From Eukaryota sp. GEM-RC1 (lineage: Eukaryota): DNA of 64,000 bases. The stretch lies in assembly GCA_040285855.1 (NCBI GenBank), contig JAUFOQ010000001.1, positions 248,001 through 312,000 on the forward strand. Reading direction: 5' to 3'. How positions within the stretch are numbered: position 1 is the first letter of the stretch; every line of letters begins with the position of its first letter. Below are positions 8,223 through 55,687 of this stretch, piece after piece. The notes below the pieces were generated by a model that saw only the letters and a program-made list of their open reading frames with translations, did no database searches and had not been told where the DNA came from. The translations under genes were made by a program, and so were the position numbers.

Positions 8223-9289
8223 AGGTTTATGAGACGGAGATAAGTAAAATCTATAAGGTAAAAATATAAAAATAAACAACACCTACACCCCATATCAGCC
8301 TTGCTCACTTCATTTTCTTCTAACCCACTGTATTAGCATTTGGGTGGTTCGTTTGGACATTTGAGAGGCCTGATAGCAAAAATAACGTGTCTGGTGATAG
8401 GTCAAGGTGGTTTTCTTGGAAGATATGAGATGTAGGCAAAATTGTTCTTAAGGAAAATTGCCACTGCTACTCCTAAAATACCTTGTGGAATTCAGATATG
8501 ACTCAAAACAGCAGTTTTAGACATGATTTATTGATTGCATGAAAGCCAAGTTAGAGAACGACGATACTATACGGATGCTACAGAAGAGTGGCAGGATTAC
8601 TAGTAGCTGAAAGGTTAAGCGCATCAAGTAAGAAGAGATGCTCAACTGACACATATGAACCATCATTATGAGTAAGATTCTAGGAGGTCAAGAGAGGACA
8701 CATGGTTTCACGAACTTATGTGCACTATGAGCGCTAAAAACTCCCTATTTGTAGACATAGGGACTTTATAAGGCCTCAGGCACAGTTATAAGAAAAAAGT
8801 GTAATTTTTTTGGGGGTGTGCATTTATAGAGGTTGCATTTATAGAGAGTTGACTGTATATTATTTATATATTTAGACTCTGGGTAAATGTTAGTTGCTGG
8901 GTCACCAATATGTTTGATGTCTCATTCGGCGATATGCAATAATACTGCAATGTAATTCAATATTGTGACCGTACTTGTAAAATACCCGAGTTTTCATTTG
9001 AACAATACAAAAATACATAGAATACAAAATTACAAAAAATACTAAAATACAAAGTAAAATACAAACATATCAGTCTGATAATCTTCTTCAACATGAACTC
9101 AACGATAACGTTCACCACTGGTGATGTTATTGAAGTTCGTGTAAATTTTATCGATCAGTTGCTTTAGTAGATTGTATTAAAATTCATTTTTCGATATGAT
9201 TTGATCAAATATATTTGACATTACCAAGAACATCATTTTGTTTCATGGAATTATTGGGATACTTTTGAAAAATTTAAAAAATTTGAGGC

Positions 9290-9965
9290 CTACACTGCAA
9301 CTTTTGCACTTCCCAGATTCCTGTTGTGTAGAAGGTGCAAGACGGGAAAATCGTCTGGAGGAGTTAGAGTGTCTTCAAATGGTGAAGGGATAGTGGCGGC
9401 GGTTACTCCTGTCACGTTTTCTTCGGCTTCAGCAGTAATGGCGGAGCGAGCACTTTCTAATTGTTCTTTTAGTTCTGGTGAGAGGTTCAGTTCTAACAGG
9501 GAGTCAAGGGAACCGATGGTAGGTTCAGAGGTAGCAGTGGAGGTTCTTGGTACCGTGTAAATATAGCTTCCGAAAAGTGAGTTATCGGAGTCTTCTTTTG
9601 TAATGGCATAAGCGGCCATATCGTCTATCCAGGATAGAATGTGTTCGGCGTCCAAAAGTCTTGAGAAGGGGTACTTTGGTTCTTATTCCCTTTCTTCCGA
9701 GGGAGGAGTTCAGCAAGGCGACGTTACGGTCGGAGTTCCTTGTTTCTTGGACAGTTTCTTCGAGGTCTGTGTCCGAGGCGTAGTTCAGCGAACGGAGGGA
9801 CAGAGGAGCGGCGGCAACTTCTGGGCGGCGGCTCGAATAAAGGTTCGGATGAGAGGAGGCATGGCAGCAGTCCTCATCATCTACGGTGACATGAATATGG
9901 TCACAATAATTATTGTTGACTATACCGTCAAATGGGGTACTAGTATCAGAGAAAATATAAGACAT
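9290..9965 (-). pseudogene. Repeat-unit ORF (unit 6), frameshifted
   Basis: tccaaaagtc instead of tccaaagtc at ~9654-9657 splits the ORF; this may be a sequencing error. Confidence 0.5.
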
Positions 9966-11799
9966 AGGTTTATGAGACGGAGATAAGTAAAATCTATAAG
10001 GTAAAAATATAAAAATAAACAACACCTACACCCCATATCAGCCTTGCTCACTTCATTTTCTTCTAACCCACTGTATTAGCATTTGGGTGGTTCGTTTGGA
10101 CATTTGAGAGGCCTGATAGCAAAAATAACGTGTCTGGTGATAGGTCAAGGTGGTTTTCTTGGAAGATATGAGATGTAGGCAAAATTGTTCTTAAGGAAAA
10201 TTGCCACTGCTACTCCTAAAATACCTTGTGGAATTCAGATATGACTCAAAACAGCAGTTTTAGACATGATTTATTGATTGCATGAAAGCCAAGTTAGAGA
10301 ACGACGATACTATACGGATGCTACAGAAGAGTGGCAGGATTACTAGTAGCTGAAAGGTTAAGCGCATCAAGTAAGAAGAGATGCTCAACTGACACATATG
10401 AACCATCATTATGAGTAAGATTCTAGGAGGTCAAGAGAGGACACATGGTTTCACGAACTTATGTGCACTATGAGCGCTAAAAACTCCCTATTTGTAGACA
10501 TAGGGACTTTATAAGGCCTCAGGCACAGTTATAAGAAAAAAGTGTAATTTTTTTGGGGGTGTGCATTTATAGAGTGTGCATTTATAGAGAGTTGACTGTA
10601 TATTATTTATATATTTAGACTCTGGGTAAATGTTAGTTGCTGGGTCACCAATATGTTTGATGTCTCATTCGGCGATATGCAATAATACTGCAATGTAATT
10701 CAATATTGTGACCGTACTTGTAAAATACCCGAGTTTTCATTTGAACAATACAAAAATACATAGAATACAAAATTACAAAAAATACTAAAATACAAAGTAA
10801 AATACAAACATATCAGTCTGATAATCTTCTTCAACATGAACTCAACGATAACGTTCACCACTGGTGATGTTATTGAAGTTCGTGTAAATTTTATCGATCA
10901 GTTGCTTTAGTAGATTGTATTAAAATTCATTTTTCGATATGATTTGATCAAATATATTTGACATTACCAAGAACATCATTTTGTTTCATGGAATTATTGG
11001 GATACTTTTGAAAAATTTAAAAAATTTGAGGCCTACACTTCAACTTTTGCACTTCCCAGATTCCTGTTGTGTAGAAGGTGCAACATATCAGTTGACCTTT
11101 CAAGCGAATGTACATGTCGTTATCCACTTTTTTCTTCGTTTTCTTCACTAAAACAATATCAAGCTAACTGTATACTAAAGCTTCTGACTAAATCTGAGTT
11201 TGTTAGAATTTCCTACACAGATCACTTCGATTGGTTTTGTTGAACCTACTCTTTCAACTGAGTCTCTCACCGTGTCAAACTTACCAATCCCGACTCCAAA
11301 TGTAGTCATTCCAACCTTGATTTTTGATAGACCAAACACTGATGCTTCTGAACCAGCAAAACTCTACCAGAATTGCCAAAACGCCACTGGGCCAAGTAGA
11401 TAAATTGTAAAAGCAGAATGTAATCTTAATTTAATGATTATAGCTGTAGTGCAATGGCAAGGGCAAGGGAATCAAAAAGGACACGACAAAAAGTGGGCAG
11501 TGAAAATTTTACCTTAATGGGAGGGTAGACTGTACTTGTTTTTCGGTTGTTTTTCAATCCCAAACTGAAACACAGTACTTTATCGTTACACTCTGCTAAA
11601 GTACTTTCACTATCATCTTATATGATGTATACAATTGTTTTTGACCAACAACATTTTTATACACTTTAATTAATATACTGTAAATGTAATTGACTAAACA
11701 GCTAAAATTTAAAAAAACAACAACACCCGTCGCTATCAAATCTTATAACAGCTTTGTCCTCATAAACGGAACTCACAGCTACTAAAGCTTTGGAGATGA

Positions 11800-16039: not shown

Positions 16040-16653
16040 CAGGGCTCCTCAAAATAAATTTAAATTCTATTTAGTTTTATATAATTTTATTTATAATTAT
16101 TTTTGAGCCGTTTGGCGATCAAGCAAATAAAATAAAACCAAACAAAACATAAATAAATATAAATAAAATGTTGGACAGTAAACTTCAGTGATCTTTACAT
16201 TACATGAGTTAATTTAGTGCCCGAGATCGTTAATTGGCTTTTGACATGAAGTGTGAAATACTCAAGCTCGTTCGTTGAGACATTTGCCCTCAAAGGTAGA
16301 TTCAACCGATGCAGACGAGGCTTTCATCTGTGTTCTAAGCCAATCCAACGACTATATCCGGGAATATGATTTGTGAACGATTCTCATGGTCGTCCATGAT
16401 GCTGATTGTGGAACTAATGTTGAAGGTCCACAGATCTCTATGAAATGGCGACACAGTTAGAGTAATTATACGAAGCAGAAAGTCAACTAACCTATTTCGA
16501 CAAGAAAAGAATGATCAAATGGATTGTGTATTCATCGATAGTGACTGAGAGAAAATGTACTAATAAAATATTTGGTTTTTATTTGGTTTTTATTTCACAT
16601 TTTTTGGCACTTTTTGATGTTCAAATTATTTTAAATTATCTTATGAGAGGGCC
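16040..16653. repeat. Dispersed ~600-bp repeat, probable non-autonomous DNA transposon; diverged second copy at ~41045-41680
   Basis: Both copies start gcagggctcctca, share internal blocks (gaagcagaaagtcaact, tgtgtattcatcgatagtgact) and end ttaaattatct.atgagag. Terminal inverted similarity is imperfect. Confidence 0.7.
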
Positions 16654-16714
16654 AGGTATCGAACAAAAGAAACACAAGTGGACACGATTTATATTTGGGA
16701 TTTTGCTTGACAAA

Positions 16715-18162
16715 ATGCCGATTGTGTCATACAAGTATCTCTGGATATTAACCATACTATTGTCTCCAGTTGTGTCCTTCGTGTATTCTAGAGATGACCT
16801 TTGTGGGTATGATCCAGCTTATGTTGCTGCCAACATTTCTGGTTCCGAGGTCAGTTTCTTTCTACACCCATGTAATGCTCCGAAATCAATGTCCAATTGT
16901 ACCTCTCCAGCTTGTATGCATGTTGGTAATGACTTTGTTAGCATTGGCTCAAAATTGGCTCGTTTTGAGACATTTCGTCGTGAACTCTATTTTTCTCTCA
17001 GCGATAGTGATTCCTGCGAAGCTGATGGGAAAAAAGGTGATTATGAAACAGTGATCGTGTTCAAGTGTGATCCATCTTTGGGAAAGGGCAACCAATCTGT
17101 TGTTGTTTCAGATTCAGAACTTCCCGTTACACTATGTACCGCATCTACAACCACTACTTTCCATTTCGAATGGTCCATCAATGACGAAGATCTTTGTGTG
17201 GTATTGGAACTGCCAAGTTTGGGTTTCATTATATTCACCGTGCTTCTTGGTCTTTGCTGTGTTTCCTGCTTTGCTGGCATTGTTCAGAGAAACTGGTGTA
17301 TCCATAAAAGTCTGTTTTCTCATACTGACAACGTTACCGAGTTTCTGTGGTATATTCCTATTATTTGTTCCATTCTTATGTTTGCCGGAGGGGCTGCTTT
17401 CGGTATTTCGATTGTTATTGTGATGGTGCTGACTTTCACCATTTATAAGATCATGTACGTGGAATCAAATATCAATCGATGGACTCGAATTTTCTGGTGC
17501 ATTCCAATCGGGCTTCTGCCACTTCTTTTGTTGCACTCACATTCATCAGTCTTTTGGAGCGTTTGGATCATAGTATGGAGCTGTCTGATTTTTGGTTCTA
17601 TGTAATCAGTGCAATCGTTAACGCATTTTTCTCCTCTTCATTACTTGAAGAAGCTCTTAAGTGGTTTGTTATCGTATCACATTCAGTATCCGTGGAGTTC
17701 CAAGCAGCAGGCATATCCTCTGGAGCATTTTATGGGGCCGCTGCAGGTTTTGGATTTGCTTCCTTTGAGAACATTCTTTATGTTATTCAAGCAGCTGCAC
17801 AAGGTCCTTCATGGATGATTGCTGTTGCAATTATGAGAATTTTACCAATGTGTTCCCATATATTTTACGCATGGTTTATGGGCTTGGTCTTTGCAACTCA
17901 TGCTAATAATGTTGAAAACCCAATTAATCCTAACAACTCTTTTGTCATTCCCTTCGTTTGTCATGCCCTTTGGAATTTTAGTTTGATGATTGTTCCTGCT
18001 GTGGAAATCGCTTTAGGGGAATCTGTAGCTGAAATGTATTCTATTGTGGTCATCGTCATTTTGATTGGGTTTCTGTTTTGCTTTAAACGTTATGTTAAAG
18101 GTAAAATTGAACATTTTGAAAGAGTCACAAAAAAGCCAGTGAATCTTGAGTCTGCAGTTTAA
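16715..18162 (+). CDS. MRH (mannose-6-phosphate-receptor homology)-like domain fused to a PrsW-family intramembrane protease, ~480 aa, with one frameshift near 17510
   Basis: Signal-like N-terminus MPIVSYKYLWIL; Cys-spaced domain with YETVIVFKCDPS and FHFEW; multi-TM region with PrsW motifs EEALK, GFGFASFENILY, R..PM..H and HALWN. The listed start at 16511 lies inside a repeat. Confidence 0.7.
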
Positions 18163-26093: not shown

Positions 26094-26680
26094 CATGGAA
26101 CGCAAATGTTCCGTACCGCGGCGATTTTAGGCGTACCGTACCGTACGTCGTACGTCCAGTACAAGTACCGGTACTGTACTTCTGACCAACTAAAATAGAT
26201 TATTTCTATTTTGAACATGATGATCCAATGTGACATTTTAACAGTTACCATCGTCATAAATTCTACCGTTAAACATCGCTCAGAATATCAATATCGTGAT
26301 TGTCACATATATTCACATTTAAGGTACGTCATTTGGTGACCACAACTTCCCCAAAATGACATTTCTACGAACGAAGCTCATTAATCGCTCGCAAGCAACA
26401 ATAGTAGTAACGTCTCTGAATCGCAATGCATTTATTGAGTGGCTACGACGGAATATAACAATGATAAAGGGACCAAAGACCCACAGAATGCATTTCTGAA
26501 CGATCAGATGATGCAGTAGCAATTTATACTAGTACTCTGTTGGACTAGTGATTGAACCTCCTCTTAAACAGTAGTACTTGTAAATACATTTCGATCATTC
26601 ATAAAAAGACTTGTAATAAAATCAAAGGACATCGGTACGGATAAAATAAATCGGCACGTAACAAAAATTTGCGCACATTG
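26094..26680. mobile_element. Non-autonomous TIR element (587 bp) with 9-bp TSD; inverted-orientation relatives at 41779-42363 and 51074-51658, partial ends at ~35546 and ~49626
   Basis: Termini catggaacgcaaat / atttgcgcacattg; TSD gaagcaaat on both sides; subterminal cgtac repeats. Confidence 0.85.
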
Positions 26681-27250: not shown

Positions 27251-30200
27251 TCATGTTTTTTTGCTTAAACCAAGACTCCACACTTTCTGCCATTGTTCTG
27301 GATACTGAAGTTTGGATAAGAAATCGTGGAGATATGGGACCTTAAGGTTAGGGTCTTCTGATGTGGGCATTCTTTTCTTAGGAACGTATTCAAACAAATT
27401 GTGAAATAATGCGAATATTCGGAAAAATGATAGAAGAAGTCGATAAAATGGAAATAGAAACACGATTAAAAGTGGAGCTTGTAAATCCTTTCTTCTTCTT
27501 AATTTGACATAATTAAAGATGAAAAAGATAACGTATTGGATCAATAAAACACGAATATAGATCAATCCAAGTAGATATCCATCTTTCATAATGATGAAAT
27601 AGGAAATAATCAACAAGTGAAAATAGTCTCTGATGATAGTCACAAGTTCATACATGTAAAATGGTTTAAGAATCAGCGTGTTCAAACTCCAGAATCGAAG
27701 CAAATGTTCCAAATATTTAAAAAAGAACCGATGTGCACACGCATCCCACGATTTAACACGTTGATTAAACAACGACTTATCACCTAAGGATTCATCCCCA
27801 AATAAGTCCTGCGAAACACGAATCAGATCTGCAGGGACTTGTGTGAGAGCAGGAGTAGCAGCAAACGTGATCAGCTTCTTATTAGGCATGAGTTCTCTCG
27901 TGAGAAAACCCATGAGAGCATCTTCTCCGTGAAAAGCAGTACTATGATGAGAAATCAAGCAAAACAAAACAAACTTGTGATGATCGAGAATTTCAATTAA
28001 AACGTCCTTTTCCAAATACTAATGGCACCATGGGGATAAGAAGCAGTACCGAGGTTACTCTGACATTGCTTCATCATTCCGGAAAGCATATACTCCTAGA
28101 GTTATCTTGAAAAAAGTGAATTACATACCATATCTTGAAACCACACCAAAAAGCTGCGTCTGAAAAGACTTTTGCATTGAGACTCATTGCGATTGGGTAC
28201 AGCAGAACTATCTTTTTTGGGGAAATTCATATCAGCTCTAATAGTAATAACAGCTCCAGCAATATCTTTCTTCTTCAACTTGTCGGTTTGCCAGCTCATA
28301 TCACGGGGAATGACCACGTCATCATCCATAATCACAACATACTCGATTTCTGACCGTCGAGCCAGAATATTTTTAGCAACCTATTGTAAGAAGAAGTGCA
28401 GAAGCATACATAGTATAGAGAAAATGTTTTGTTGCCAGCCGGAACATAAACCTATAGTTAGTTAGAACAACAACCATACGTAATTAACATTGCGACCCCA
28501 CAGTTTTGTTTGGTAAATGATATCAACGGTTGTATCCGTGTTATGTGGTGCATCGTCATTGGTGTTATGACACACATACACATTACCATTAGCTATTGTG
28601 AGCAACACATTGTAGTACATACCTACTGAATCCGAAGCTAATCGCAAAGTGCGGATGAATTGTGTTTGAACATCTTTTGAAGATCCGCGATTTGTTTATC
28701 ATTTTTCTTGAAGAAATTGGACTCAATCTTCTCTATGGCCAATTCAGAACTAAAACCTCCTGACATGTGACTTGCAATTAAAATGGCAACATTGGGAGCT
28801 TTAATATCATACCCTTTAACGTTCCGGTGAACAGGCCATGAGACAGTGAAGAAAGCAAGAACAATAAGAAAATGCTCAAGCCCTAAGATGAACAAAGTGA
28901 CATAAACTGATGAAACTTGGTGGAAGAACTTGGTAGCAAGAATGTAGTCTCGGTAAAATACGAGAAGCAAAAACAACAAGACAATGGACAAAAACATCCA
29001 GAAGCATACACCCATTGTATCACGTTTCACGGAACCAAAACCACGAATATTTCGAAATTCTTGAAGAAGGCCAAGCCATCTATCATCAACAGGAACATCA
29101 GTGTTTTCAGGTCTTTTAGGATCATCTGGAACATAATCAGGCCGGACATGAGTGTCTTCAAGAACATGATACATCTCCTTGTCAGTATTAATCGAGCCTT
29201 GTAATTTGGGTTTGTACATTTCAGATAGAACAGCAGTTATAACAAGACAAAGAAAACCAGAAACAAGAGCAACATCAATCAAATCTAGTGTTTCAGAGTG
29301 TTCGTCCAAAGCAAAGTATCTGAAAGAAAGATTCACCATGGAGTTCTTTTGGAAGGAAATACCGACAGAAAATCCGGTAAACGAAACATTAGAAATATCA
29401 CATTTGTAGGAAATGGAAGAGTTAGTAGCATCAAATCCATCGAGATATACATAAACAGTAGGAAATCGAATAAATTCTTCAGTGAAAAGAATGTCTTTGA
29501 TCACGTAATCATTTGGTGAGTCATCATTAAGATCAGAGCCATTAACAAAGAAGGTACCAACATCAATGGTATTATACAGAACATTAGTTGCATTTAAAAC
29601 CAATGAATTATGTCGGTACTCGGAAGCACGTCCTGAAGTTTCAACTGAAGAAAAGATGTGTAAAAAATCGGTACCATCATCCAAAACCACTTCTTGATGA
29701 TATGAAAGCGTATCCAATTCATCAAAGAAAAACCCTTGTGGAGCAGAGAGTAGAAGCAAAGAGCCATCAGCAGGATAAGGAAAAGGAGTTTGGCTGAGCC
29801 ATTGAAGTTCGTGTTCAACAAAAGAGTATTGAGAACTTACATAGGCCTTTGAGTTGTCAGAACAAGAAGCTCCGACTGCTATCCAAGTGATTGACAGTCG
29901 GTCAATAAAAGATTCTCGTGGATAAGCACCAGGAATCCTTGTTCTAATAGTCAACAGAAAAGAATGTGAAGTGATACTGGATGCAAAAACATCAACTGTC
30001 AAAATCTGTGATGAATCAATATCATGTAAAGCAACAAAGACAGCGGGAGGAAATGGAAACTCAAAGTGAAACCATACTTGAAATTCCATGTGAAATCCGA
30101 GGGCTCCGTGGTGAAGGTTGAACTGTTGATTGGTTGGACCGACTGAGAGTAAGTCTGTATCCAAGATAGTAGTTGGTGGACAAAGTAAAGCGTGTTCGAA

Positions 30201-31998
30201 GACGATTGAGGATGTGTATGGTACCGCAGCAAACAGTACAACCAATAAAGCAATGAGAAAACCATAAAAGCAACATCCTTTGCTTTTGGCGAAATAATTA
30301 GGACCTTTTGACTCTGATTTGGATCCAGAAACATTCTCCGTTTTTGATTGAGAACCAGGAGTTATTGGCATTGTTCGATATTCTGGAGTATTCACATGAA
30401 CATCATTTGGATCAATGGTTTGAGGTAATGCCTGATTTCCAACAACCTGGTTTGACGTAACTGAATTGGGTGAGTGATCTGCAGGTGGTTGAGAATGACC
30501 TTGAGACGGAGTACCTGATTGGTCAGGGGTATAAGATGGTTTTGGATCAGGAACAGTTGAGACCTGGTGAATCGCACTTTGTCTTTCCCTTTTTTTAGCA
30601 TCATTATACACTTTGCGTAAGCTATTAACAGATGGTCTTAAACCCAACTCTTGGCTAATCTTGTCTATGATTTTCTTACATTCGGTCCGTTGAAACTTAG
30701 TGAGCTTAAAATGACTGTTGGAAAGTTTGTTACTTACGTCATCCCGAAGTTGTAGCAAATCATTGACCAGTGTTCTAATTTGACGGCTCACTATTTCATT
30801 CGAGGTCACAGTTTCAGTTGCAAGAAAGCTCTTTTGGGCGTGAGCAAATCTAGCAAATGATGCTGCTCCTTTAGCAGTAAAGTATTCTAAGGATACATTA
30901 CTAACATGACTCACAGATCCTGTGCAAGCCCTTTGAACAAGTTGGTTGATGTTTGGGATATTTGAACCGAGACCAACCATGAGCAAGACTTTGTATGATG
31001 ATTTGTACTTTCTTAATGCAGTTTGAAGGAACTCTTGACATTTGTCATACACACTTTGCACAACGTGTTGAAATTGACTGTGTGAAAGCTTTTGCTTAAA
31101 TTCATAGTTATGGTTCATTAACGTACCTGAGAACGACACGGTCACAGATGATTCTGGAAGCGACAGCGATTCTTTAATTGATTTGGTCCGTGTAAGAAGT
31201 TTGTTTTTGAATTGAACATGTTCAACTATAAGAGGGGGAATTCCTTGAGATTTTGCTTGTTCAATGAACCAATTGTGGATCGCTTTGTCAATCACATCTC
31301 CTGACACTTCATCAGTTTCTTCTGATTCAACGGCATACCTATCTTGCAGAAAAGACACAGCTGAAAGCTCCAATTTAGTTGCTCCAAGGTCGAGTATCAG
31401 AACCTTATTTGGGTTAGTTTTGTGGGTATTCTGGAATCCATAAGTACTGTACGCAAACGCAGCAGCAACACAATCGTAGATCACCCCCAAAACTTCCAAC
31501 CCAGCTAATTCAGCTGCCTGTTTCATACAACCGCGTTGTGTTTCCGTAAAGGAAGTAGGTACTGTGAGAATACATTTGCTCGGTTTTGTAGTTAGAGAGA
31601 ATCTTCTCACATGTCGATCAATCAGTCTGTTCAAGAGGTTAGCGAAGAGTTGTTGAGGTTTGTATTGGGTGTTTAAAAGTTCAACGGCACAGTCACCGTC
31701 TGTGGAAGATTTGATGGAAAAGGGCCAACGATCATAATACTGAGGAGGAGAAGCATCGTATTGTTTTCCAATCAAGCTTTTAAATCCGTAAGCGCAAGAA
31801 CTAGGCGATATTTCAAATGCTTGCAATGCTTGTTCCCCATACACAATGTCATTTCCACATACAGCAAGAGCTGTTGGGATGTTGCTTATCTGTCTGAAAT
31901 GAGATCTTTGGGTGAACAAACTGCACTCGATTGCCAAGAGAAACAATACGACATTGATGCCCTCCAAAATCTATACCAAGAGTGAGTTCGCTGGACAT
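27251..31998 (-). CDS. Hsp70-NBD / H-type lectin / GT2 processive glycosyltransferase fusion membrane protein, ~1520 aa
   Basis: Introns 31894-31921, 28593-28622, 28452-28479, 28381-28409, 28096-28128 and 27942-27974 (all GT-AG, 28-33 nt), plus two 1-nt A-run deletions (~28677, ~28010), join four listed ORFs. Motifs: GIDFG, FKSLIG, TVPTSF, DLGAT (Hsp70); F..PP.VFV...D...W/Y.A repeats (H-lectin); YVPAGNK, DDD, QDMEY, HGAISIW, HGED, QRVKSW (GT2). Confidence 0.85.
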
Positions 31999-32519: not shown

Positions 32520-33185
32520 AAATACCAGCGTAATCGAATTTAATTGATCAGAGTGTAGAACAGATCTAATATAATGATTGCGACCAAACCTCTGTGCCGA
32601 CTAGGAATGATAATTAGTTCAGTTCAGTTCACACCTCCATGAACTGAACTGAACTGAACTAAATGAACTTACATTTTTATTCCATTTTTTCTTACTACCT
32701 ACTAGTGCAGTAAGGTGCACTTTTTCACCACATATAAGGAAACGTAGGATGAAGTACAATAGTGTTATGAAATGGTCAACTTAAAGCAACGTAAGAACGC
32801 AAGTGTTTAAGATCAAATTTACCTTTTTCATAGGGGTACCCTAGATTGTCAACGTCATTTTGGAGAAATGTAACAATTCAAGCAAGTAGTGTTGCGTCTG
32901 AGCCTTCGTTTTTACTTGCAGGACTGATTGCATGTAACCCAGTTAATTAGAGTATGTTTTTAACATGTTGTTTTATTAAATTTTGCAGCGATTGAGTACT
33001 ACATGTACTTGTTGATGACCTTTTGATTTGATCCTAGGTACATTATTGTGGAAACAATGGTATATTTGCTCAAGTTCACATAGTTCAGTTCATGGTAATC
33101 AGTGAACTAGTTCAGTTCAGTTCACACTTTTTTGAACTGAACTGAACTATTTCACATTCCTAGTGTCGACACTTGAAACTAATTT
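32520..33185 (-). pseudogene. Short relic of a paralogue of the 46030-48644 gene, split by the 32602-33162 element
   Basis: The joined flanks read ttgatcagagtgtagaaca...atgattgcgaccaaacctctgtgccgac|acttgaa and match 46900-46990. Confidence 0.65.
32602..33162. mobile_element. Non-autonomous hAT element (561 bp)
   Basis: TIR taggaatg / cattccta; 8-bp TSD gtgccgac/gtgtcgac (1 mismatch); (agttc)n/(gaact)n subterminal repeats. Confidence 0.85.
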
Positions 33186-38362: not shown

Positions 38363-41039
38363 CAGGCTTCACTAAAGTAGTCCAAAATTCCAAATTAAAG
38401 TAAAGTAAAGTACTTTACTTTACTTTAGGCTTTACTTTACTTTAACAAATAAAGTTACTTTAAGGACATTAAAGTTGGATCCGATCTCAACTCCTCTCCT
38501 ATACATTCTCTCCTGGAAATTGAAAATAGATTTCCATGACATTCCTTCCTTCCGAAGAATGGAAGTCAGTATGTGAAGTTGTTGAGGTGTTGGGTAAAAC
38601 ATGTGCCCGCATACATTGCAAACTGTGTGACCAAAACTATTCAGTCAATAGATGGGCTATGGAGGGACACTACATCCCGAATCGTCTTCCTAAACGACCA
38701 ATAAAACTGTGCTCCGCTCTTTCTATTCCTCAAAACAAAGTATTGGTGGGTGCTCTGGAATCATATCTAGCGACTCATTCGCGAAAGCGCCGAACCACTA
38801 CAAAGCAATCTTCTTCCTCTGTTAAACGAGCCGCTTTGCCTACATTGTTATCACCCGACGACCCTCCAAATGATGTAGTACACGTATTCGCAGATGGTAC
38901 GCTCCCCAGTGCTTCTTCTCCCATCTTTTCCCCCCATTCTTCCCCTAACTCCCCACTTCTTTATACTACTTCCACATCCTCTGCCGCGGACATCGCCAAT
39001 TCAACGGTTTCAGTAACGGAAGCTGCTCTTACACCGTCATCACAGCCCGCTGTCACTATTTCTAAAAAAAAGTAAGAAGAATCTAAAGCAGTTGTCCTTG
39101 TTTGCCTCACAAAAACGTTATAATTGTAGTAGACTGGACAAGCTTACTGCCGTATATGCCCTGAGTGAAGGGATGCCATTGACAAAAGTCTCATCTGGAA
39201 CTTTTCTTCAACATATTATTGACAACTGTATTGACCATTATAGAAAATTTGAAGAAGTTTATCAACTGCCCTCATACACGAAACTTTCGGATAGTGTAGC
39301 TCCTGCAGTGGTCTGCCAAATTAAAAGTGACGTAAAAAAACGGATTCAGTCTGAAAATGTGAAAGGCTTTGCATTGGTTGTAGATGGTTCTGAGGTTAAT
39401 CACAATTCATTGATAAATTTTTGTTTAGTTTCTGCAAACGAAAGTATTTTTTTCAAGACCATTGAAGTCAATGATGAACGAAAAACAGAACTATTTTTGA
39501 CTGACCAGTTTTCCAAAATTATTGAAGAAGTTGGTGAGAATCAAGTGAATATTGTAATTTCTGATGGTGCATCAAACTATCTTAATGCAGCAATGAATCA
39601 AAAAAATAAGTTCAAGCACGTACGTGGAATTCGATGTGCTATTCATGCGTTAAATTCTTTTCTGAAAGACATCTGCTGTCAAGAATCTTGTCACAATCTA
39701 CCGTCAATCGTGACTCTTTTACAAAAAGCCACAACGGTGAGTCAATTTGTTTTAGACAAACCATTTATTCGAAAGTTGATGAAGAAGCTGGGATCTCCCA
39801 AAAAGTTAAAAAGAATAGCAATGACCAGGTTCTACACGCATTTTTTGGTCATGGAACGTCTTTTGGAGTTGTATACTCAAATTAACAACACACTAACCCA
39901 CGCAGAGTACACACAATGGATCAACCACAGTCAGCAGCGCCACTTAAGAAGTAAATCATCAGAAGTGAAACAAATCGTGGCTGATGATGAGTACTGGATG
40001 CATGTTAAAGAATTCATTGACTTTTTGAGGCCCATCATCAATTTGATGTTGAAATTGGACAGCTTAACACCCATTATGGGAAAATTGTGCCGATATCTGG
40101 AAATTGAACGTCAACGACAGGAAATCATTAATTTATCTTTCATTTCAGAAGGAGAGAAAATTTTGTTAAGACAACGCTTTGAATTTCGAACTTATCAAAT
40201 CGTTAGCGATTTCCACCAAGCAGCATTTTGCTTAGACCCTGAGTATAGACCAATCATCACAAAGAGGAATTATTTGGAGCATCGAAATGCGTTATACAAA
40301 TTATTTGAAGACCTCTACGGTTTGGATAAAAAACCAGAACTGATGCACCAGTGGTCAATGTACATTTCTGGGATGGAAGAATTTGAACACAAGGAAGTGT
40401 TTCTCACGGCTTCTAAAATGGCTGCACACGATTGGTGGATTGCATACGGAGGACAAACTGAATTGGCAAAATTAGCCGTCAGACTGCTTAGTATGGTTTC
40501 TTCAAATTCGGAAGCAGAACGGAACTGGTCAGATTTCAAAGTGATTTGTACGAAAGAAAGAGGAAGAATGAGCAGTCAACGAGCCAATGACTGTGTGTTA
40601 GTGAAACACCATGTCAGAGGGGGAAGAGCTCCTTCAAGAAAGTTCTTCGACTGGCAACCAGCAGAGGAAGTGGTCTATGTCTTTGAGGATGATGACCTAG
40701 AAGTGTCCGATGAAGATCTAGAAGAGAATGAAGAAGATGTGGTCCAAGTTGAAGAAGTGAACCCAGATGGAGAAGTGGTCCAAGTTGATCCATAGTGAAA
40801 ATGATATTTTCTTAAGCGCTCACCCGCTTTCCATTAAGAATTGTAGTTTTTGGTGAGTTTCTACAATAAAACATGTATAATAGTGTACTTTTGGTGTCAC
40901 AGAGTTATTTACTGTGCTCAAAAAGCAAAATAAACAAGATTGAGGTTTGTCACTTTACCGTTCCAAATTTTAAAGTAAAGTAAAGTAAAGTAAAGTAAAG
41001 TAAAGTCACTTTATCACTTTACTACTTTAGTGAAGCCTG
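38363..41039 (+). mobile_element. Near-intact autonomous-type hAT DNA transposon (2677 bp)
   Basis: 19-bp perfect TIRs caggcttcactaaagtagt / actactttagtgaagcctg; subterminal (taaag)n arrays; the TSD is only partial (cagggc shared). Confidence 0.93.
38536..40795 (+). CDS. hAT transposase (BED-like zinc finger, DUF659-type core, dimerisation domain), ~750 aa, frameshift in the A8 run at 39064-39071
   Basis: W...CKLC...H...C; VDGS, SDGASN, CAIH, TRF, WW, SNSEAERNWS; acidic tail. Confidence 0.9.
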
Positions 41040-42368
41040 GTTGCAGGGCTCCTCATAAATAAATATAGTTTCTATTCATTAATATCTATATTTATTTTTG
41101 ACACTTTTCCACGATCATACAAGTAAAACAATATATAAATAAAATATATATAATATGCTGCAAAGTAAACTTCATTGATCTTTATACTACATGAGTTGAT
41201 TTAGTACTCAAGGTTGTTGATTGACTTGAGACATGTTGTGTGAACATATTCAAGCTCAGCCAAGAATCAAAGTCTAGTCATTTTCCCTCAAACTTTGCCA
41301 TTTCCATGTCGAACCTAACCGATGCAGTTGAGCCTTTACCTGTGTTCGAAGCCAATCCAACGACTATAACCGGGAGTGAACGGTTCTCATAGTCGTTCAA
41401 GATGCTGATTATTGAACTTATGTGTTATTGAAGATCCACAGATGTCTATGGAATAACGACACAGTCAGAGCAATTATACGAAGCAGAAAGTCAACTCACC
41501 TTTTTCGACAAGAAAGGGATGAACAAATAGATTGTGTATTCATCGATAGTGACTCAGATTAGATGTACTATTACAATAATTTGTTTGTATTTGGGTTTTA
41601 TTTTGTCTTAATTATATTTATTTCACATTTATTTTTGGCACTTTTGGATGTTCAAATTATTTTTAAATTATCTAATGAGAGAACGTGCAAATATTAGTAC
41701 TCAATATCAGTAAAGCAACAATCGTTGCCAATAAAACTCACATCAGCTGTTTCTTCATAAAAAATACTGAGAGGTAATCAATGTGCGCAAATCTTTGGTA
41801 CGTCCCGATCTACAGTCTTTTATCCGTACCGATGTCATTTGATCTCGTTAAAAGCCTATTTATGAATAATCTAAAAGGATGTAAAAATACTATCTTTTCA
41901 GTGGAGGTTCATTCACTAGTCATACACAGTACTAGTGCAAATTGTTACTGCATCTTCTGACCGTTTAGAAATCCAATCTGTGGCTTTTTGGCACTGTATC
42001 TTTGTCATATTACGTCGTAGTCACTCGTTAAATGCTCTGTAATTCGAAGATGCTACTACTATTGTTGATTTCGAGCGATTGCTGAGCTTCGTAAGTAGAA
42101 ATGTCATTTTGGGGAAGTTGTGGTCACCAAATGACGTACCCTAATTATGAATATGTGTGACAATCACGACATTGATATTCTGAGCGATGTTTAACGGTTA
42201 GAATTGATGACGATGGTAGCTGTTAAAGTCTGACATTCGATCATCATGCTAAAAATAGTAATAATTTATTTTAGTCGGTGAAAAGTACAGTGCCGGTACT
42301 TGCAACGCACGTACGGTACGGTACGTCTAAAATCCCCGCGGTACGTAACATTTGCGTTCCATGTTATA

Positions 42369-44015: not shown

Positions 44016-44815
44016 TCAAGTTGAAACATCAAATTCCTGAATGACACACAAAAGACAATCTTGATACAGAAGATCATCAAAGTTTGAACCACCAAGATTA
44101 GCATCGCCATCGGTGTCAATTACAACATGGGACTGTTGTTCACCAGCTTTGATTATCGTAATGTCAAAAGTACCTCCACCAAGATCAAAAACAAGAAAGA
44201 GTTTGCCAATAATATCTATGTCTGGATTAGCGTGAAAATAAGCCAAAGCAGCAGCAATCGGTTCTTCCAAAACTCTGATAACATTGAGCCCAGCAAGATC
44301 GCCAGCTGCCTGACGTGTAGCGAGTTTTTGACTGTCATTGAAGTAAGCTGGTACAGTTACAACAGTATCAATTTGACCCGGGTCAAGACCAAACTGGTTT
44401 TGGGCATAAGTTTTGATTCTCTTTAGAATTTCAGCACTCAGACTTTGAGGAGTAAACAACTCATTATTGAGATTAACAACAGCCAATTCACTGTAGGGGT
44501 CCTGTTGAACTGTGAAAGGAAAGCTCCTGAAGTCATTGAGATCGATTTCAGGAAAGGGGCGTCCTATCAACCGTTTAAACTCTCGAGCTACAGTGGGTGC
44601 TCGTCTTGGAAGATCGTCAATAATTGTCAAAGCTGGTGCACCACAAATTAGCCCCCTTTCAGTACAAGCTACGGCGGATGGCATGGTGAGCTGATTTTGC
44701 TAGAATACAAGAACAGGTCTTGAGTTAGATCAAAAATGTGCACATACATTTCATTATGCCCGCATAGGAAACCACAACTATTTGTAGTTCCTAAATCGAT
44801 ACCAAATGTGGGCAT
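44016..44815 (-). pseudogene. Truncated copy of the Hsp70-VWA gene (N-terminal part of the NBD only); intron 44719-44747
   Basis: Close paralogue of 54176-54958; lacks 1425 bp (52751-54175 in copy B); 'caa' microhomology at the junction ~44030. Confidence 0.9.
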
Positions 44816-45544
44816 TATCGCAGAAAAATGAAACTGAAGATTCCACTCCAACCCAAACACTCTCACATTTATTATTGTCTGTACCGTATCACAACCGTCC
44901 TTGTCCAAATCTGAGCTAGGCTTGGTTTAACAACTTAACTTTATGATGTTGCGGTGATTAGATGTGATTTCTAACATCTTAATCACATTGTCACATACCA
45001 CAGATTATATATCTGGGATTCTCAACTACATGACGTAGGGTTAAGCTTTATGTTCTTTCTCAAAGCCATACTGATGTAGGAAGATGACGGCTAGCTTACT
45101 ACTCCTTCTTCATTTCTATGAGACTTTACCATTGTCTTCTTTCAGCAAGGTATTGTTACTGAAATACATCGGTTCCTTCCCCTTTCTCTTTTCTTCCTCA
45201 AAAAAGCAATTCCGATCATGCTGGTTTCGTTTTGAATGTACACAGAGGCATTTGGGTCTCTAGTAAGTTTGTGCTCCATTAGAAAGCACTTGACCTGAAT
45301 AGAACACTTTCTCCCTATAAACACTTTATATGTCTGTTGTCCTGACCGGGAAAGTATGAAATGTCCGTGATATCCACATCACCTGACATATGAAAGGAAG
45401 TAGGACATCAGTGTTGAAGTTACATAATATACCCCTTCCTTTGTTTTCTACAAGTGTTTGTTGCAACAGAATTGCTTGTCAAATGATGTTTGCAAAGTTT
45501 TTGAGTGGAATGGCTTATTTCAACAAACACAAATTTAACGAAGT

Positions 45545-46029: not shown

Positions 46030-48644
46030 CTACAAACCAAATAGAAGACTTGGCAACCTTTTAAATATTGTCCACAGACGTTCTTTACCTGTTGTTTTAG
46101 TTCGTTCTAAGTTGTCCTCAATTTTAGCTGAATCATCTGGGTTGTACACGTACAATTGAGGTAGTGAAACTCCACTTAACAGATTTGAGACTTTTGGTTG
46201 AAGTAGATGAATTAATGTAGAAATATCATCGCGATGATGAACATCATCAGGAATTACATGATATTCGTGTTCAAGAGTAGCTAGAATTCTGTTCATACCA
46301 TTTACTTCTGTTTTCTGATAGTAGTGAGACCATAGTAACAGGAAATTGAGATCGTCTTCTGAAATTAGATTCCAACTTTTTCCAGCATGAATACAGTGGA
46401 GAATTAAATTAGCTGAGGAGGTAGCTGTCTTGTTGTCACCAATAAAACGCTGCAATGCAAAATAAATGTCATTCTTGATTGCAGAAAATGTATGTGACAC
46501 CCAATGTATTCCTAACTCTCCATTAACGTTGCTGTTATGAAGATGAATGACGAAATTCCACTTTGACAGTAATTTTCTTGTTGAAAATGACCAACGAAAA
46601 CACTTTTTGGGGTCAAATTCAGAATCAATTCTTGAGCATTCCTTGATGACATCAAAGAGGGGACATATGTAGAACAAATCCTTTTCAAATCGGCAACAAG
46701 CGAGATATTCTACCATTTTGAGGAATAGTTTAAATAGCGAATTGTCATCAGTGAGATTCCGCTTTGTCAGTTCAATCAGAAACCACTCAAAACGAATTAA
46801 ATCGTTATTGATGAGAAACAGCTTTGAATAATAGAAATAGACAAGCACAGCTTCTGGCGTTTCACAAACATATTCATAATGCCTACAAAGACTATCAAGT
46901 AACAGCGTCATCGAATCTAATTGATCAGAGTGTAGAACATAAGGACTAAAATGATTGAGACCAAACTTCTGCGCCAATACTTGAACGAATTCCTGTCGAA
47001 TATTCCGACAGTCTTGACAAAACTGCTGTACATCTCCAAGAAACTGTGGCGCCAAAACTTGAACAAATTCCATTGGAACATTTTCACCCATTAATAACCT
47101 ACAGACATTTCCTAATAGCTCTGAGACAACGTTTGGATCTTCTGTATTCCTGAGCTCTTCTGCCAGCCGGCGAACAGGATCAGGTGAACGGGGAATGACG
47201 AAATTCTCTGGAATAACAGTTTCTGATGCTTGAAAAATAGCCTCCAGTGTTTCGTCTTCCAAATTAGGATTGACTTTGAATCCATCATGAAACAATTTTG
47301 TAAGTTTAATCAGAGCACCCCCAGAACAAAGCTCAAAATCGGGATTGCGTACAGGAGCGTTTCTATATAGTGCGTTGAATCGTGCTGAACAACGTGAGAG
47401 GGTTTGCCTCGATTGAGAGGTAGCTGACTCGCGGTTAGACAAGTAATTATTCAAAGAGGGATATACAGACATTGGAACTCCATGAATTCGAAGATTTTCA
47501 ATGTAGTCTCCCTGGTGGAAGTTCAATTGACCATCAGGGAGAGTACAATACAGTGCACCACCAATTTTGATACTGTCAACATCATAAACTGTAAATCTAC
47601 ACTGTGGGAATGTTGCTTCGAGTATTGCTGTTATCTCTGGAATTTGACAAAATTCTCCAGTCAGATACACATCGTTGACTTGACCAAAGCGGTTTTGAGC
47701 AACCCTTTCCAATGCATTGCTGATAAGACTAGTGAAGTCTTGAATCGAATTTAAAATAATAGTGTAGAATTGCGTGCGAGTAATTTCAAGAGCGGGAATA
47801 TTGGGCAATATTCCACTAAAGTTTTCAACATGAACATGTTCTTCTTCACCAGCGCGAAAAAAAACACGTCTAGCGGATTTGCAATGTTCAAATAGCTCAA
47901 ATTGGGCTCTACGATCGGTTAAAAAGTGTGCGTATCTTTGGACATCTCTTTCATTGATATGGTCAGTAAAATACTTGTACAGGTCGTAGTCCCATGTTTT
48001 CCCACTGAAACTAGAGATTGCTTGAAAAGAATCAGGAATGAAGGAATCCTTATTAAAAGCAACGACTCCAGTAGAAGAATAAGAAATGTTACACATTAAG
48101 TGAGTGCCAATCGGATTATCTTGATGTGGAAATGTAAAAACGGCAGACACCACTGCGGGGATGATGGCTTTGAGATCAATATCGAAATGTCCTAGAACTC
48201 TTTTGATGATGGACTTTGTAACATTAGTTTCATCGACGAAGGACGGAGTATGGGTAACAACTGCACGAATCGGATTGTCTCTAAAAGGCGGATCATTCTT
48301 CAAACGAGATATAACTCGATACAGAAGAAAGGCCACAGAAAGCGGCATTTCTAGTCCATCAAAATCTACTGAAGTGACAGAGTCTGATTTATGAGTACAC
48401 TGGGGGAAGGCAACGTCATCGCCATGAAGATAGTTAACAAATAGAGTGTCGGATGGATCTATATTCAGTGTTTCAGGCGAACGAAACAATGAAACAGAGG
48501 AAGTCTTGAAAGCATGACTTCAATAAGAAAGGAACACGGAACATACCTCAATATAAAGGAAATGGGCCCTGCACCTCTGCCCCCGACATTCTTTACCACT
48601 CGCAGCGAGTTATGAGAAACATCGATTCCAATGTTAATGACCAT
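46030..48644 (-). CDS. Highly divergent Hsp70/actin-fold NBD fused to a helical C-terminal region, ~860 aa; intron 48518-48546
   Basis: Spliced N-terminus MVINIGIDVSH; VVTHTPSF, IIPAVVSAV, FSGKTWDYDLY and VYLTGEFCQIPEI occur in Hsp70 NBD motif order; long uninterrupted ORF. Confidence 0.75.
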
Positions 48645-54958: not shown

Positions 54959-55687
54959 TGTCGCAAAAAAATGAAACTGAAGATTCCACTCCAACCCAAA
55001 CACTCTCACATTTATTATTGTCTGTACCGTATCACAACCGTCCTTGTCCAAATCTGAGCTAGGCTTGGTTTAACAACTTAACTTTATGATGTTGCGGTGA
55101 TTAGATGTGATTTCTAACATCTTAATCACATTGTCACATACCACAGATTATATATCTGGGATTCTCAACTACATGACGTAGGGTTAAGCTTTATGTTCTT
55201 TCTCAAAGCCATACTGATGTAGGAAGATGACGGCTAGCTTACTACTCCTTCTTCATTTCTATGAGACTTTACCATTGTCTTCTTTCAGCAAGGTATTGTT
55301 ACTGAAATACATCGGTTCCTTCCCCTTTCTCTTTTCTTCCTCAAAAAAGCAATTCCGATCATGCTGGTTTCGTTTTGAATGTACACAGAGGCATTTGGGT
55401 CTCTAGTAAGTTTGTGTTTTATTAGAAAGCACTTGACCTGAATAGAACACTTTCTCCCTATAAACACTTTATATGTCTGTTGTCCTGACCGGGAAAGTAT
55501 GAAATGTCCGTGATATCCACATCACCTGACATATGAAAGGAAGTAGGACAGCAGTGTTGAAGTTACATAATATACCCCTTCCTTTGTTTTCTACAAGTGT
55601 TTGTTGCAACAGAATTGCTTGTCAAATGATGTTTGCAAAGTTTTTGAGTGGAATGGCTTATTTCAACAAACACAAATTTAACGAAGT

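What the first reader, a model, noticed from the sequence alone, without database searches (positions are those of the whole stretch)
27251..31998. Hsp70 ATPase domain + extracellular H-type lectin repeats + GT2 polysaccharide synthase in one polypeptide
Seen: six short GT-AG introns and two single-A corrections merge four ORFs into one frame (4569 nt, ~1522 aa). The order is Hsp70 NBD with no substrate-binding domain, Pro/Ser linker, TM, 2-3 H-lectin-like repeats rich in N-glycosylation sequons (~29300-30090), TM, loop, 2 TMs, GT2 catalytic domain (DDD, QxxEY, GED, QRxxSW), then TMs. Established: D, DxD, (G)ED and QxxRW-type motifs mark processive GT2 synthases such as chitin, cellulose and hyaluronan synthases, and H-type lectins bind Gal/GalNAc. 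Inference: the NBD and GT2 face the cytosol and the lectins face outside, as expected for a glycan-sensing, nucleotide-regulated cell-coat or cyst-wall synthase. It would be loosely analogous to myosin-motor chitin synthases. I do not know of this architecture being described.
Basis: partly seen in the sequence, partly recalled or inferred. Interest (0 to 1): 0.92.

Follow-up and report, generated by a model that had tools for sequence, protein, structure and literature searches.

The report
Polysaccharide synthase with swappable Hsp70/kinesin heads
A protist gene joins a worn-down Hsp70 chaperone ATPase domain, three lectin-fold repeats and a membrane glycosyltransferase of the hyaluronan/chitin-synthase fold, and sister genes carry a kinesin head in the same slot, so the head likely anchors a predicted cell-coat or cyst-wall synthase at a set place in the cell.

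Summary
The fusion is real. One stop-free 1110-codon frame runs from the Hsp70 domain through the lectin repeats into the GT2 domain. Six introns plus one base at each of two A-runs give 1522 aa, collinear with an intact 1532-aa orthologue, P0003. The two breaks are probably assembly errors; no reads could be checked. The lectin-GT2 module forms one skoliomonad/barthelonid clade (100/100) in headless, ectodomain-headed, kinesin-9-headed and Hsp70-headed versions; kinesin and Hsp70 versions group together (99/98). The predicted GT2 fold matches hyaluronan synthase, tied with a lipid mannosyltransferase. The lectin pocket tryptophan is kept in repeat 1 of 3 of 3 headless paralogues but 0 of 8 headed ones. 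The Hsp70 ATPase motifs are degenerate. Best reading: a surface-polysaccharide synthase whose cytosolic head is a docking tether, as in myosin-chitin synthases. Ten literature searches found no description. New variant of a known kind; interest 0.76.

The parts
27251..31998 (-). Whole gene: 7 exons, 1522 aa when the two one-base frame breaks are bridged
   Evidence: collinear with intact P0003
30837..31998 (-). Degenerate Hsp70 nucleotide-binding domain (aa 1-378, includes intron 1); no substrate-binding beta domain follows
   Evidence: Pfam PF00012 E 1.9e-39; PDB DnaK E 1.5e-23; motif comparison
31894..31921 (-). Intron 1 (28 nt, GT-AG)
   Evidence: restores the N-terminal phosphate-1 motif; same junction as record P0001
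30576..30836 (-). Probably helical segment after the NBD (aa 379-465), 34% identical to P0003; origin unassigned
   Evidence: no usable PDB or Atlas hit
30288..30575 (-). Pro/Ser/Gln-rich linker (aa 466-561), poorly conserved (25%)
30201..30287 (-). TM1, preceded by basic residues; headless paralogues start just upstream of this helix
   Evidence: hydropathy; alignment
29871..30173 (-). H-type lectin-fold repeat 1, flanked by a conserved Cys pair (aa 597, 703); pocket Trp and Arg lost
29592..29846 (-). Repeat 2: beta-sandwich in the model, no sequence match here, but a clear H-lectin repeat in headless paralogue P0155
29304..29582 (-). H-type lectin-fold repeat 3; Phe and Val at the discoidin W238 and Y244 positions
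29214..29294 (-). TM2
28836..29021 (-). TM3-TM4 hairpin before the catalytic domain (72% identical to P0003)
27695..28793 (-). GT2 (GT-A) catalytic domain: CHN in place of the first Asp motif (28572), GNK (28436), DDD (28329 region), QxxEY, GED (27928), QRVKSW (27763)
28675..28678 (-). Frame break 1: A4 run, one base short relative to P0003; leads to the TAG at 28640-28638
28008..28011 (-). Frame break 2: A4 run, one base short relative to P0003
28593..28622 (-). Intron 2 (30 nt)
28452..28479 (-). Intron 3 (28 nt)
28381..28409 (-). Intron 4 (29 nt)
28096..28128 (-). Intron 5 (33 nt)
27942..27974 (-). Intron 6 (33 nt)
27422..27646 (-). Three C-terminal hydrophobic helices (TM5-7), predicted to pack with TM3-4 as in hyaluronan synthase

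Best explanation
This is one gene for a multi-pass membrane protein with an Hsp70-type head, three lectin-fold repeats and a GT2 domain, predicted to polymerise a cytosolic nucleotide sugar and thread the chain out through its own membrane helices, while the head likely acts as a docking tether that holds the enzyme at a particular cellular site. Shown: the domain order, an intact orthologue, the family of head variants, the degenerate head and lectin motifs, and the predicted folds. Inferred: topology (head and GT2 inside, repeats outside as a single-chain pseudo-trimer); processive synthesis of a surface or cyst-wall glycan; and the tether role. In the kinesin-9-headed sisters the tether would bind microtubules. 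In this Hsp70-headed form it would bind an unknown cytosolic partner, as a pseudo-ATPase that may still hold nucleotide. The repeats would have lost canonical Gal/GalNAc binding and serve as a structural or altered-specificity ectodomain beside the exit pore. My odds by step: one gene with two assembly errors 0.85; active GT2 0.85; processive polymerase 0.65; head as tether rather than regulator 0.6.
For: One gene: stop-free ORF across head, lectin and GT2 start; intact collinear P0003; 424 stop-free codons downstream of break 1; both breaks on A-runs. Of 8 truncated family records examined, 3 end clearly in the one-base-deletion frame (P0002, P0010, P0016), 1 marginally (P0022), 1 stops at the same WKK codons as break 2 (P0021) and 3 end in frame. 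Another gene in the window has a one-base A-run break against its own internal repeat. Synthase: the GT2 part is the most conserved region (75-80%); DxD and GED are kept; the model of P0003 aa 1011-1532 (pLDDT 79) matches hyaluronan synthases first (Foldseek E 5e-11; VIA Z 25.1, rmsd 3.4, 373 aligned), then chitin and cellulose synthases. Head as swappable module: 4 full kinesin-headed records (P0004-6, P0009), 2 signal-peptide/ectodomain-headed (P0007-8), 3 headless (P0098, P0103, P0155). All are one clade (100/100); the NTPase-headed six are one clade (99/98), and grouping the Hsp70 forms with the headless ones is rejected (p-AU 0.0002). Both head types look catalytically worn: the switch II Gly is Ala in 4 of 4 kinesin heads; the Hsp70 phosphate-1, phosphate-2 and adenosine motifs are altered relative to DnaK and to a canonical neighbour in this window. 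Precedent: the myosin head of class V chitin synthase shows no motor activity and tethers vesicles (PMC4425547 passages). Topology: conserved Cys pair in the ectodomain; P0007 has a signal-like N-terminus plus three extra helices, which keeps the repeats on the same side. One skoliomonad isolate makes double-walled plugged cysts (PMC11603281 passages).
Against: No activity, localisation or partner data exist. The VIA top hit, a lipid-linked mannosyltransferase (PcManGT, Z 25.5), ties with hyaluronan synthase. The first signature Asp is His in the whole lectin clade, and there is no strict QxxRW. Pfam GT2 scores are below the curated cut-off for P0003 (19.8 bits against 27). Paralogues share the breaks (P0002 break 1; P0016 and P0021 break 2), which inherited frameshifts would also explain; A/T-run lengths show no window-wide depletion, and the 11-kb tandem array has only one indel between copies. 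The K71-equivalent Lys and both acidic positions of the NBD are kept, so nucleotide binding, and thus regulation, is not excluded. Cysts were reported in only one isolate, whose two recovered long records are kinesin- and ectodomain-headed; no Hsp70-headed copy was seen from it.
Confidence: 0.5

Rival explanations
1. One reading: a regulated synthase in which the Hsp70 domain senses ATP/ADP or a co-chaperone and switches the GT2 domain, while the lectin repeats sense or hold the glycan outside.
For: The NBD fold, the K71-equivalent Lys and acidic residues are retained in two species. The pocket Asp is kept in repeats 1 and 3 of the window protein. Fused regulatory domains on synthases are known (PilZ on bacterial cellulose synthase; recalled).
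Against: The pocket Trp is lost in repeat 1 of 8 of 8 headed forms and is absent from repeat 3 of all 12 rows; W238F/Y244S abolishes most discoidin binding. The Gly-rich ATPase motifs are altered. The slot is also filled by kinesin, by an unrelated ectodomain or by nothing. The NBD drifts fast (32%) against 47-52% for kinesin heads compared between species.
Confidence: 0.2
2. The GT2 domain is a non-processive transferase that glycosylates a lipid or lipid-linked acceptor in ER, Golgi-like or plasma membranes, and the heads position it in the endomembrane system.
For: VIA ranks PcManGT (6yv7) first, Z 25.5, tied with hyaluronan synthase. The signature departs from D,D,D,QxxRW. One Atlas look-alike cluster is automatically named a putative ceramide glucosyltransferase (a lead only).
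Against: The hyaluronan synthase matches cover more residues (367-382 against 320) and dominate both lists. Helices on both sides of the catalytic domain and a large outward domain suit a polymer exporter (inference).
Confidence: 0.18
3. In this organism the copy is really broken (a recent pseudogene or a truncated Hsp70-lectin membrane protein ending at the TAG at 28638), or is read by ribosomal frameshifting; the fusion is intact only in relatives.
For: Paralogous records share the same breaks. There is no window-wide homopolymer depletion.
Against: There is no decay downstream: 0 stops in 424 codons and 75-80% identity. Breaks at different sites in different paralogues are one-base losses. 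Other paralogues from the same organism read through the WKK site (P0006, P0010). Neither site is a canonical X XXY YYZ slippery heptamer in frame (read; rule recalled).
Confidence: 0.09
4. The GT2 domain is catalytically dead and the protein is a surface receptor or adhesin coupled to a cytosolic head.
For: The first Asp is replaced by His.
Against: His at that position occurs in 24 of 119 stored relatives with the motif, in several clades. DxD, GED and the Q/R/W positions are invariant or nearly so. The domain is the most conserved part of the protein.
Confidence: 0.03

Closest known systems
Myosin-motor chitin synthases (fungal class V/VII CsmA, Mcs1; independently in lophotrochozoans)
   Same: A GT2 membrane synthase with an N-terminal cytosolic NTPase-fold head; the fungal head shows no motor activity and tethers the enzyme near secretion sites (PMC4425547 passages); such fusions arose more than once (PMC3942024 passages).
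   Different: The head is an Hsp70 NBD here and a kinesin-9-type motor in sister genes, not myosin. The GT2 is not a chitin synthase (no QRRRW; no Chitin_synth match for P0003). A three-repeat lectin-fold ectodomain lies between head and enzyme.
Hyaluronan synthase (Chlorella virus, Xenopus HAS1) and related processive GT2s
   Same: Best overall fold match for the catalytic and membrane part; DxD and ED motifs kept.
   Different: Only 12-18% identity, no sequence-level PDB hit for the family profile at E 0.01, His for the first Asp, QRxxSW motif; donor and product unknown.
Chitin and cellulose synthases with other accessory domains: oomycete MIT-chitin synthases, PH-domain CesA, amphioxus discoidin(F5/8C)-SAM chitin synthases
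   Same: A targeting or sugar-binding domain fused to a GT2 synthase (passage; PMC4937987 abstract and section 7).
   Different: The amphioxus domain is F5/8C, not the H-type lectin domain; none has an Hsp70 or kinesin head in the text read.
H-type lectins (Helix pomatia agglutinin, SLL-2, discoidin C-terminal domain)
   Same: Pfam match and fold (Foldseek probability 1.0, TM by target 0.69-0.72; VIA Z 8.2-8.3 to discoidins).
   Different: Three repeats in one membrane-anchored chain instead of a homotrimer; the whole model aligns with the three-module PCSK9 C-terminal domain (Z 9.9, rmsd 3.8, 208 aligned); pocket aromatics lost in headed forms.
Atypical Hsp70-family NBDs (Hsp110/Sse1, Ssz1/HSPA14; recalled)
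   Same: An NBD with altered catalytic motifs, used as a binding module.
Unnamed eukaryotic QRxxSW GT2 subfamily (fungi, Capsaspora, Chromosphaera, Stygiella, Phalansterium, barthelonids)
   Same: The catalytic domain belongs to it: 571 representatives at E<=0.001 for relative P0023; names.
   Different: Of 63 long representatives scanned (of 150 listed), 3 had H_lectin, all skoliomonad or barthelonid, and 0 had HSP70 or kinesin. I found no characterised member.

Membership tests
Canonical Hsp70 chaperone | Actin-like nucleotide-binding domain | tested here: met
   PF00012 E 1.9e-39; DnaK structures E 1.5e-23
Canonical Hsp70 chaperone | Substrate-binding beta domain after the NBD | tested here: not met
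   Match ends at profile position 374 of 599, one stretch only; a helical segment, linker and TM follow
Canonical Hsp70 chaperone | Intact ATPase motifs (GIDLGTT, EP.AAA, DLGGGT.D, GGS.R.P; roles recalled) | tested here: not met
   GIDFGGH, DCVAAA, DLGATK, GLGSNIP here; P0003 similarly altered; K71-equivalent kept; a neighbour gene has the canonical set
Hsp110/Ssz1-type atypical Hsp70 | NBD plus helical bundle used to bind another Hsp70 or a J-protein | tested here: inconclusive
   The segment after the NBD gave no usable PDB or Atlas hit
H-type lectin | H-type beta-sandwich fold | tested here: met
   PF09458 above cut-off; Foldseek and VIA matches to HPA, SLL-2, discoidins
H-type lectin | Three-fold assembly with pockets between subunits | tested here: inconclusive
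   Model pTM 0.79 aligns across all three repeats to the three-module PCSK9 domain; prediction only
H-type lectin | Pocket aromatics (discoidin II W238, Y244) | tested here: not met
   Phe/Val in repeat 3, Arg at the Trp position in repeat 1; Trp kept only in headless paralogues
H-type lectin | Gal/GalNAc binding | not testable with these tools
   needs a glycan array
Processive membrane GT2 synthase | GT-A domain packed on membrane helices from both sides | tested here: met
   Model of P0003 aa 1011-1532 matches HAS, CHS and CesA
Processive membrane GT2 synthase | DxD and catalytic (G)ED | tested here: met
   DDD and GED present and conserved
Processive membrane GT2 synthase | First Asp of the D,D,D,QxxRW signature | tested here: not met
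   His in the whole lectin clade; Asp in 95 of 119 relatives with the motif
Processive membrane GT2 synthase | QxxRW | tested here: not met
   QRxxSW, one residue longer, family-wide; may be the functional equivalent, not shown
Processive membrane GT2 synthase | Processive polymer synthesis and export | not testable with these tools
   needs an enzyme assay
Chitin synthase (including myosin-motor classes) | QRRRW and a Chitin_synth profile match; myosin head | tested here: not met
   No Chitin_synth family for P0003-P0010; no myosin
Motile kinesin-9 (sister genes P0004-6, P0009) | Kinesin motor fold, nearest to KIF9/kinesin-9 | tested here: met
   PF00225 E<=2e-52; top three PDB hits are 7n61 and two KIF9 entries
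Motile kinesin-9 (sister genes P0004-6, P0009) | Switch II DLAGSE | tested here: not met
   Gly is Ala in 4 of 4, Glu kept in 1 of 4; P-loop GK[ST] kept in 4 of 4; importance of the Gly recalled

The most novel reading that the evidence does not exclude
Skoliomonads have built a family of wall- or coat-polymer synthases on one lectin-GT2 chassis and address them to different cellular sites by swapping cytosolic heads. A kinesin-9 head would give the first microtubule-motor-fused polysaccharide synthase. An Hsp70 NBD head would be used as a nucleotide-gated or co-chaperone-docking switch that ties wall synthesis to the chaperone network during encystment. If the headless forms with intact pockets bind their own product, the family may make a GalNAc-type cyst polymer like Giardia's, whose synthase was unidentified in the 2010 paper read.
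Probability: 0.2. Interest if true: 0.92.

Novelty: new variant of a known kind. Interest (0 to 1): 0.76.

Why it matters
Fusing a cytoskeletal head to a wall-building synthase was known for myosin and actin. This family does the same with a kinesin and, more oddly, with an Hsp70 ATPase domain stripped of its chaperone half, which suggests the Hsp70 NBD can serve as a free-standing targeting module on a membrane enzyme. Headless, kinesin-headed and Hsp70-headed versions of one enzyme exist in culturable free-living protists, so what a head does for a synthase can be tested by direct comparison. It also names candidate enzymes for the double-walled, plugged cysts of a lineage close to fornicates, and points to a large, apparently uncharacterised eukaryotic GT2 subfamily.

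Tried and rejected
Reads: the one run search listed none (no RNA holder listed, none was listed), so introns and A-runs could not be checked; this is no evidence either way. No whole genome is held. A scan of metagenome contigs with the last exon confirmed no relative among 175 pattern matches. The complex prediction of head with GT2 domain was not available; nothing was folded. The wide VIA search was not run.

Cryptic introns as a fix for either break: none of 20-60 nt in the right phase. Window-wide homopolymer shortening: not seen. Idea that the segment after the NBD is the Hsp70 lid: no PDB or Atlas support, left open. Sequence searches of the PDB with the GT2 family profile gave 0 hits at E 0.01 and with P0010 0 hits at E 1; searches used thresholds too strict to inform. 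Repeat 2 had no sequence match to repeats 1 and 3 in headed forms (hhalign 0.1% and 3%). The order of head gain is unresolved: kinesin forms are one clade only at 67/86 and 71/83, and the root of the lectin clade is open. No Giardia record appeared among the 23 named or unnamed rows or the 30 look-ups; most of the 571 representatives were not named, so this is not absence. NCBIfam gave only weak NodC/PgaC matches far below cut-off. Rfam: 0 hits in the window. Earlier findings: four look-ups gave nothing that bears on this.

Literature searches for the architecture: searches returned 0 papers; the listings showed nothing on it; (kinesin switch II mutants) returned 0, so that point is recalled.


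Full report
1. The observation. The minus strand holds a stop-free ORF of 1110 codons at 31970..28638. Pfam finds HSP70 at aa 32-375 (E 1.9e-39, profile 34-374 of 599) and two H_lectin stretches (E 5.8e-15) in it. Its last 40 residues are the start of a GT2 domain, so the head-lectin-GT2 junctions are continuous in the raw sequence. The rest of the GT2 domain lies in shorter frames downstream.

2. An intact orthologue. A search with the membrane half found 5 proteins among 7997 candidates scored. P0001 matches the model's first 1099 residues except at the bridged position, and P0002 is an 85% identical paralogue; both are named as records of Eukaryota sp. GEM-RC1. P0003 (1532 aa, Eukaryota sp. 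TZLM1-RC) carries HSP70, H_lectin and a weak GT2 match in one chain and is collinear with the model: 32% identity over the NBD, 25% linker, 38% ectodomain, 72% TM3-4, 75% between the breaks and 80% after break 2. These isolate names are Skoliomonas, free-living anaerobic metamonads, sister to barthelonids and near fornicates (PMC11603281, passages). P0003 is a predicted gene model; I saw no transcript for it.

3. The two frame breaks. Homology places both on A4G runs; only 7.5% of the coding bases lie in runs of four or more. No intron can replace either, and the 424 codons downstream are stop-free. Of 8 truncated family records, three end clearly in the frame expected from a one-base loss, one marginally, one stops at the same WKK codons as break 2, and three end in frame. 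A repeat gene at 58285-62304 shows a one-base A-run break against its own internal repeat. Against an error: paralogues share the breaks, run lengths are not depleted window-wide, and the tandem array has one indel in 11 kb. I put assembly error at about 0.85.

4. The family. Searches with the GT2 part gave 14 of 3531 and 9 of 6469 candidates. A search of 1.84 billion representatives with relative P0023 gave 571 at E<=0.001, of which 150 were listed. I scanned 63 long ones: 3 had H_lectin and 0 had HSP70 or kinesin; the three are from GEM-RC1, TZLM3-RCL and Barthelona sp. PCE. The lectin-GT2 module thus comes in four forms: headless (P0098, P0103, P0155), signal peptide plus ectodomain plus three helices (P0007, P0008), kinesin-headed (P0004, P0005, P0006, P0009; P0010 is a fragment) and Hsp70-headed (P0001, P0002, P0003). 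On the GT2 core with 12 outgroup rows, the 11 lectin rows are one clade (100/100), the six NTPase-headed rows one clade (99/98) and the two Hsp70 rows sisters (100/99). Holding Hsp70 and headless forms together is rejected (p-AU 0.0002). Kinesin monophyly is weak (71/83), so which head came first is open. Short fragments and near-duplicates were left out of these trees. The GT2 itself belongs to a wide eukaryotic subfamily with a QRxxSW motif; named members include Capsaspora, Chromosphaera, Stygiella, Phalansterium and a fungus.

5. The enzyme. A model of P0003 aa 1011-1532 (pLDDT 79, pTM 0.80, 18 sequences) matches hyaluronan synthases best by Foldseek (E 5e-11), then chitin and cellulose synthases. 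VIA ties the lipid mannosyltransferase PcManGT (Z 25.5, rmsd 3.0, 320 aligned) with viral hyaluronan synthase (Z 25.1, rmsd 3.4, 373 aligned). DxD and GED are kept. The first signature Asp is His in the lectin clade and in 24 of 119 stored relatives with the motif (a redundant set), and the Q motif is one residue longer than QxxRW. It works like a processive synthase by fold but fails the strict signature, and it is not a chitin synthase.

6. The ectodomain. The model of the window's ectodomain (pLDDT 79, pTM 0.79) matches SLL-2, Helix agglutinin and discoidins (Foldseek probability 0.99-1.0 but E only about 0.01; VIA Z 8.2-8.3 for discoidins). As a whole it aligns with the three-module C-terminal domain of PCSK9 (Z 9.9), which fits a single-chain pseudo-trimer; these Z values are middling and the fold call leans on the Pfam match. 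Repeats 1 and 3 are homologous (hhalign 98.6%); repeat 2 has no sequence match here but is a Pfam H_lectin stretch in P0155 and aligns with Helix agglutinin. Discoidin II needs W238 and Y244 for binding, and its pocket lies between trimer subunits (bioRxiv 10.64898/2026.06.18.733164, passages). The window's repeat 3 has Phe and Val there. The Trp is present in repeat 1 of 3 of 3 headless forms and 0 of 8 headed forms, and in repeat 3 of 0 of 12 rows. So canonical sugar binding probably decayed as the heads were gained.

7. The heads. Against DnaK and a canonical Hsp70 gene in this window, the NBD has altered phosphate-1, phosphate-2 and adenosine motifs but keeps the K71-equivalent Lys and acidic residues (motif roles recalled). 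There is no substrate-binding domain. The kinesin heads are nearest kinesin-9, keep the P-loop, and have Ala for the switch II Gly in 4 of 4. They are 47-52% identical between species, against 32% for the Hsp70 heads. Two unrelated, worn NTPase folds in one slot, on a long linker, suggest a binding role more than a catalytic one.

8. Mechanism. Inferred: TM1 anchors the chain with its N-terminus inside; the repeats sit outside; the GT2 domain faces the cytosol, polymerises a nucleotide sugar and exports it through TM3-7; the head fixes where this happens. For kinesin forms the site would be microtubules; for this form the partner is unknown. The product is unknown. One skoliomonad isolate makes double-walled plugged cysts, and Giardia's GalNAc-polymer synthase was unidentified in 2010 (PMC2924369, passages), which makes a cyst-wall role attractive but untested. 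Rivals, with odds, are listed separately.

9. Comparison and novelty. The closest known system is the myosin-motor chitin synthase, whose head shows no motor activity and tethers (PMC4425547, passages) and which arose at least twice (PMC3942024, passages). Other accessory domains on GT2 synthases are known (PMC4937987, abstract and section 7). PMC11546553 (passages) was read for processivity background only. Ten searches of the open library showed no paper on an Hsp70- or kinesin-headed GT2 or an H-lectin-GT2. The main text of the genome preprint on these organisms (10.1101/2023.05.03.539051, term counts and passages) has 0 occurrences of glycosyltransferase, chitin, lectin or kinesin. Its supplements and most subscription journals were not seen and could list the architecture. 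Verdict: real, apparently undescribed, a new variant of a known kind; interest 0.76.

Noticed in passing
proteins P0004, P0005, P0006, P0009 (not in the window): Kinesin-9-type motor domain fused to the same lectin-GT2 module in three skoliomonad isolates, with a degenerate switch II; arguably the more striking member of the family.
   Followed up: partly
proteins P0098, P0103, P0155: Headless H-lectin-GT2 paralogues in two skoliomonads and Barthelona that keep the lectin pocket Asp/Arg/Trp; the best targets for a glycan array.
   Followed up: partly
window 52767-54990 (-), truncated copy 44016-44830 (-): Hsp70 gene with canonical NBD motifs and a VWA domain inserted between the NBD and a second HSP70-matching stretch (Pfam HSP70 2 stretches, VWA_2 E 2.7e-11); the second copy is 96% identical in DNA. 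Hsp70 domains seem to be shuffled freely in this genome.
   Followed up: partly
window 46030-48580 (-): 829-aa ORF whose first 330 residues look like a far more degenerate Hsp70-type NBD by eye and alignment, with no Pfam hit at E 0.01.
   Followed up: partly
window 1-11083: Tandem array of a 1742-bp unit, about 6.4 copies, 99.7-99.8% identical, each with a 244-codon minus-strand ORF without a Pfam hit.
   Followed up: no
window 38530-40795 (+): hAT-type transposase (DUF659, Dimer_Tnp_hAT) in two frames, flanked by 5-bp microsatellites at 38411 and 40971.
   Followed up: no
window 32600-33164; 26094-26680, 41779-42363, 51074-51658: A MITE-like element with 56-nt inverted ends about 600 bp upstream of the gene, and a second ~590-bp repeat in three copies, one just downstream of the gene.
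   Followed up: no
window 58285-62304 (-): Large surface-type protein of CarboxypepD_reg-like repeats with frame breaks near 60845 and 60411, the latter a one-base A-run loss against its internal repeat.
   Followed up: partly
window 16466-18162 (+): Membrane protein ending in a PrsW-family intramembrane protease domain (E 8.5e-22), a family mostly known from bacteria (recalled).
   Followed up: no
proteins P0070, P0072, P0088, P0092, P0014: Very long relatives of the same GT2 subfamily (1258-3186 aa) in barthelonids, skoliomonads and Capsaspora whose large N-terminal parts have no Pfam match.
   Followed up: no
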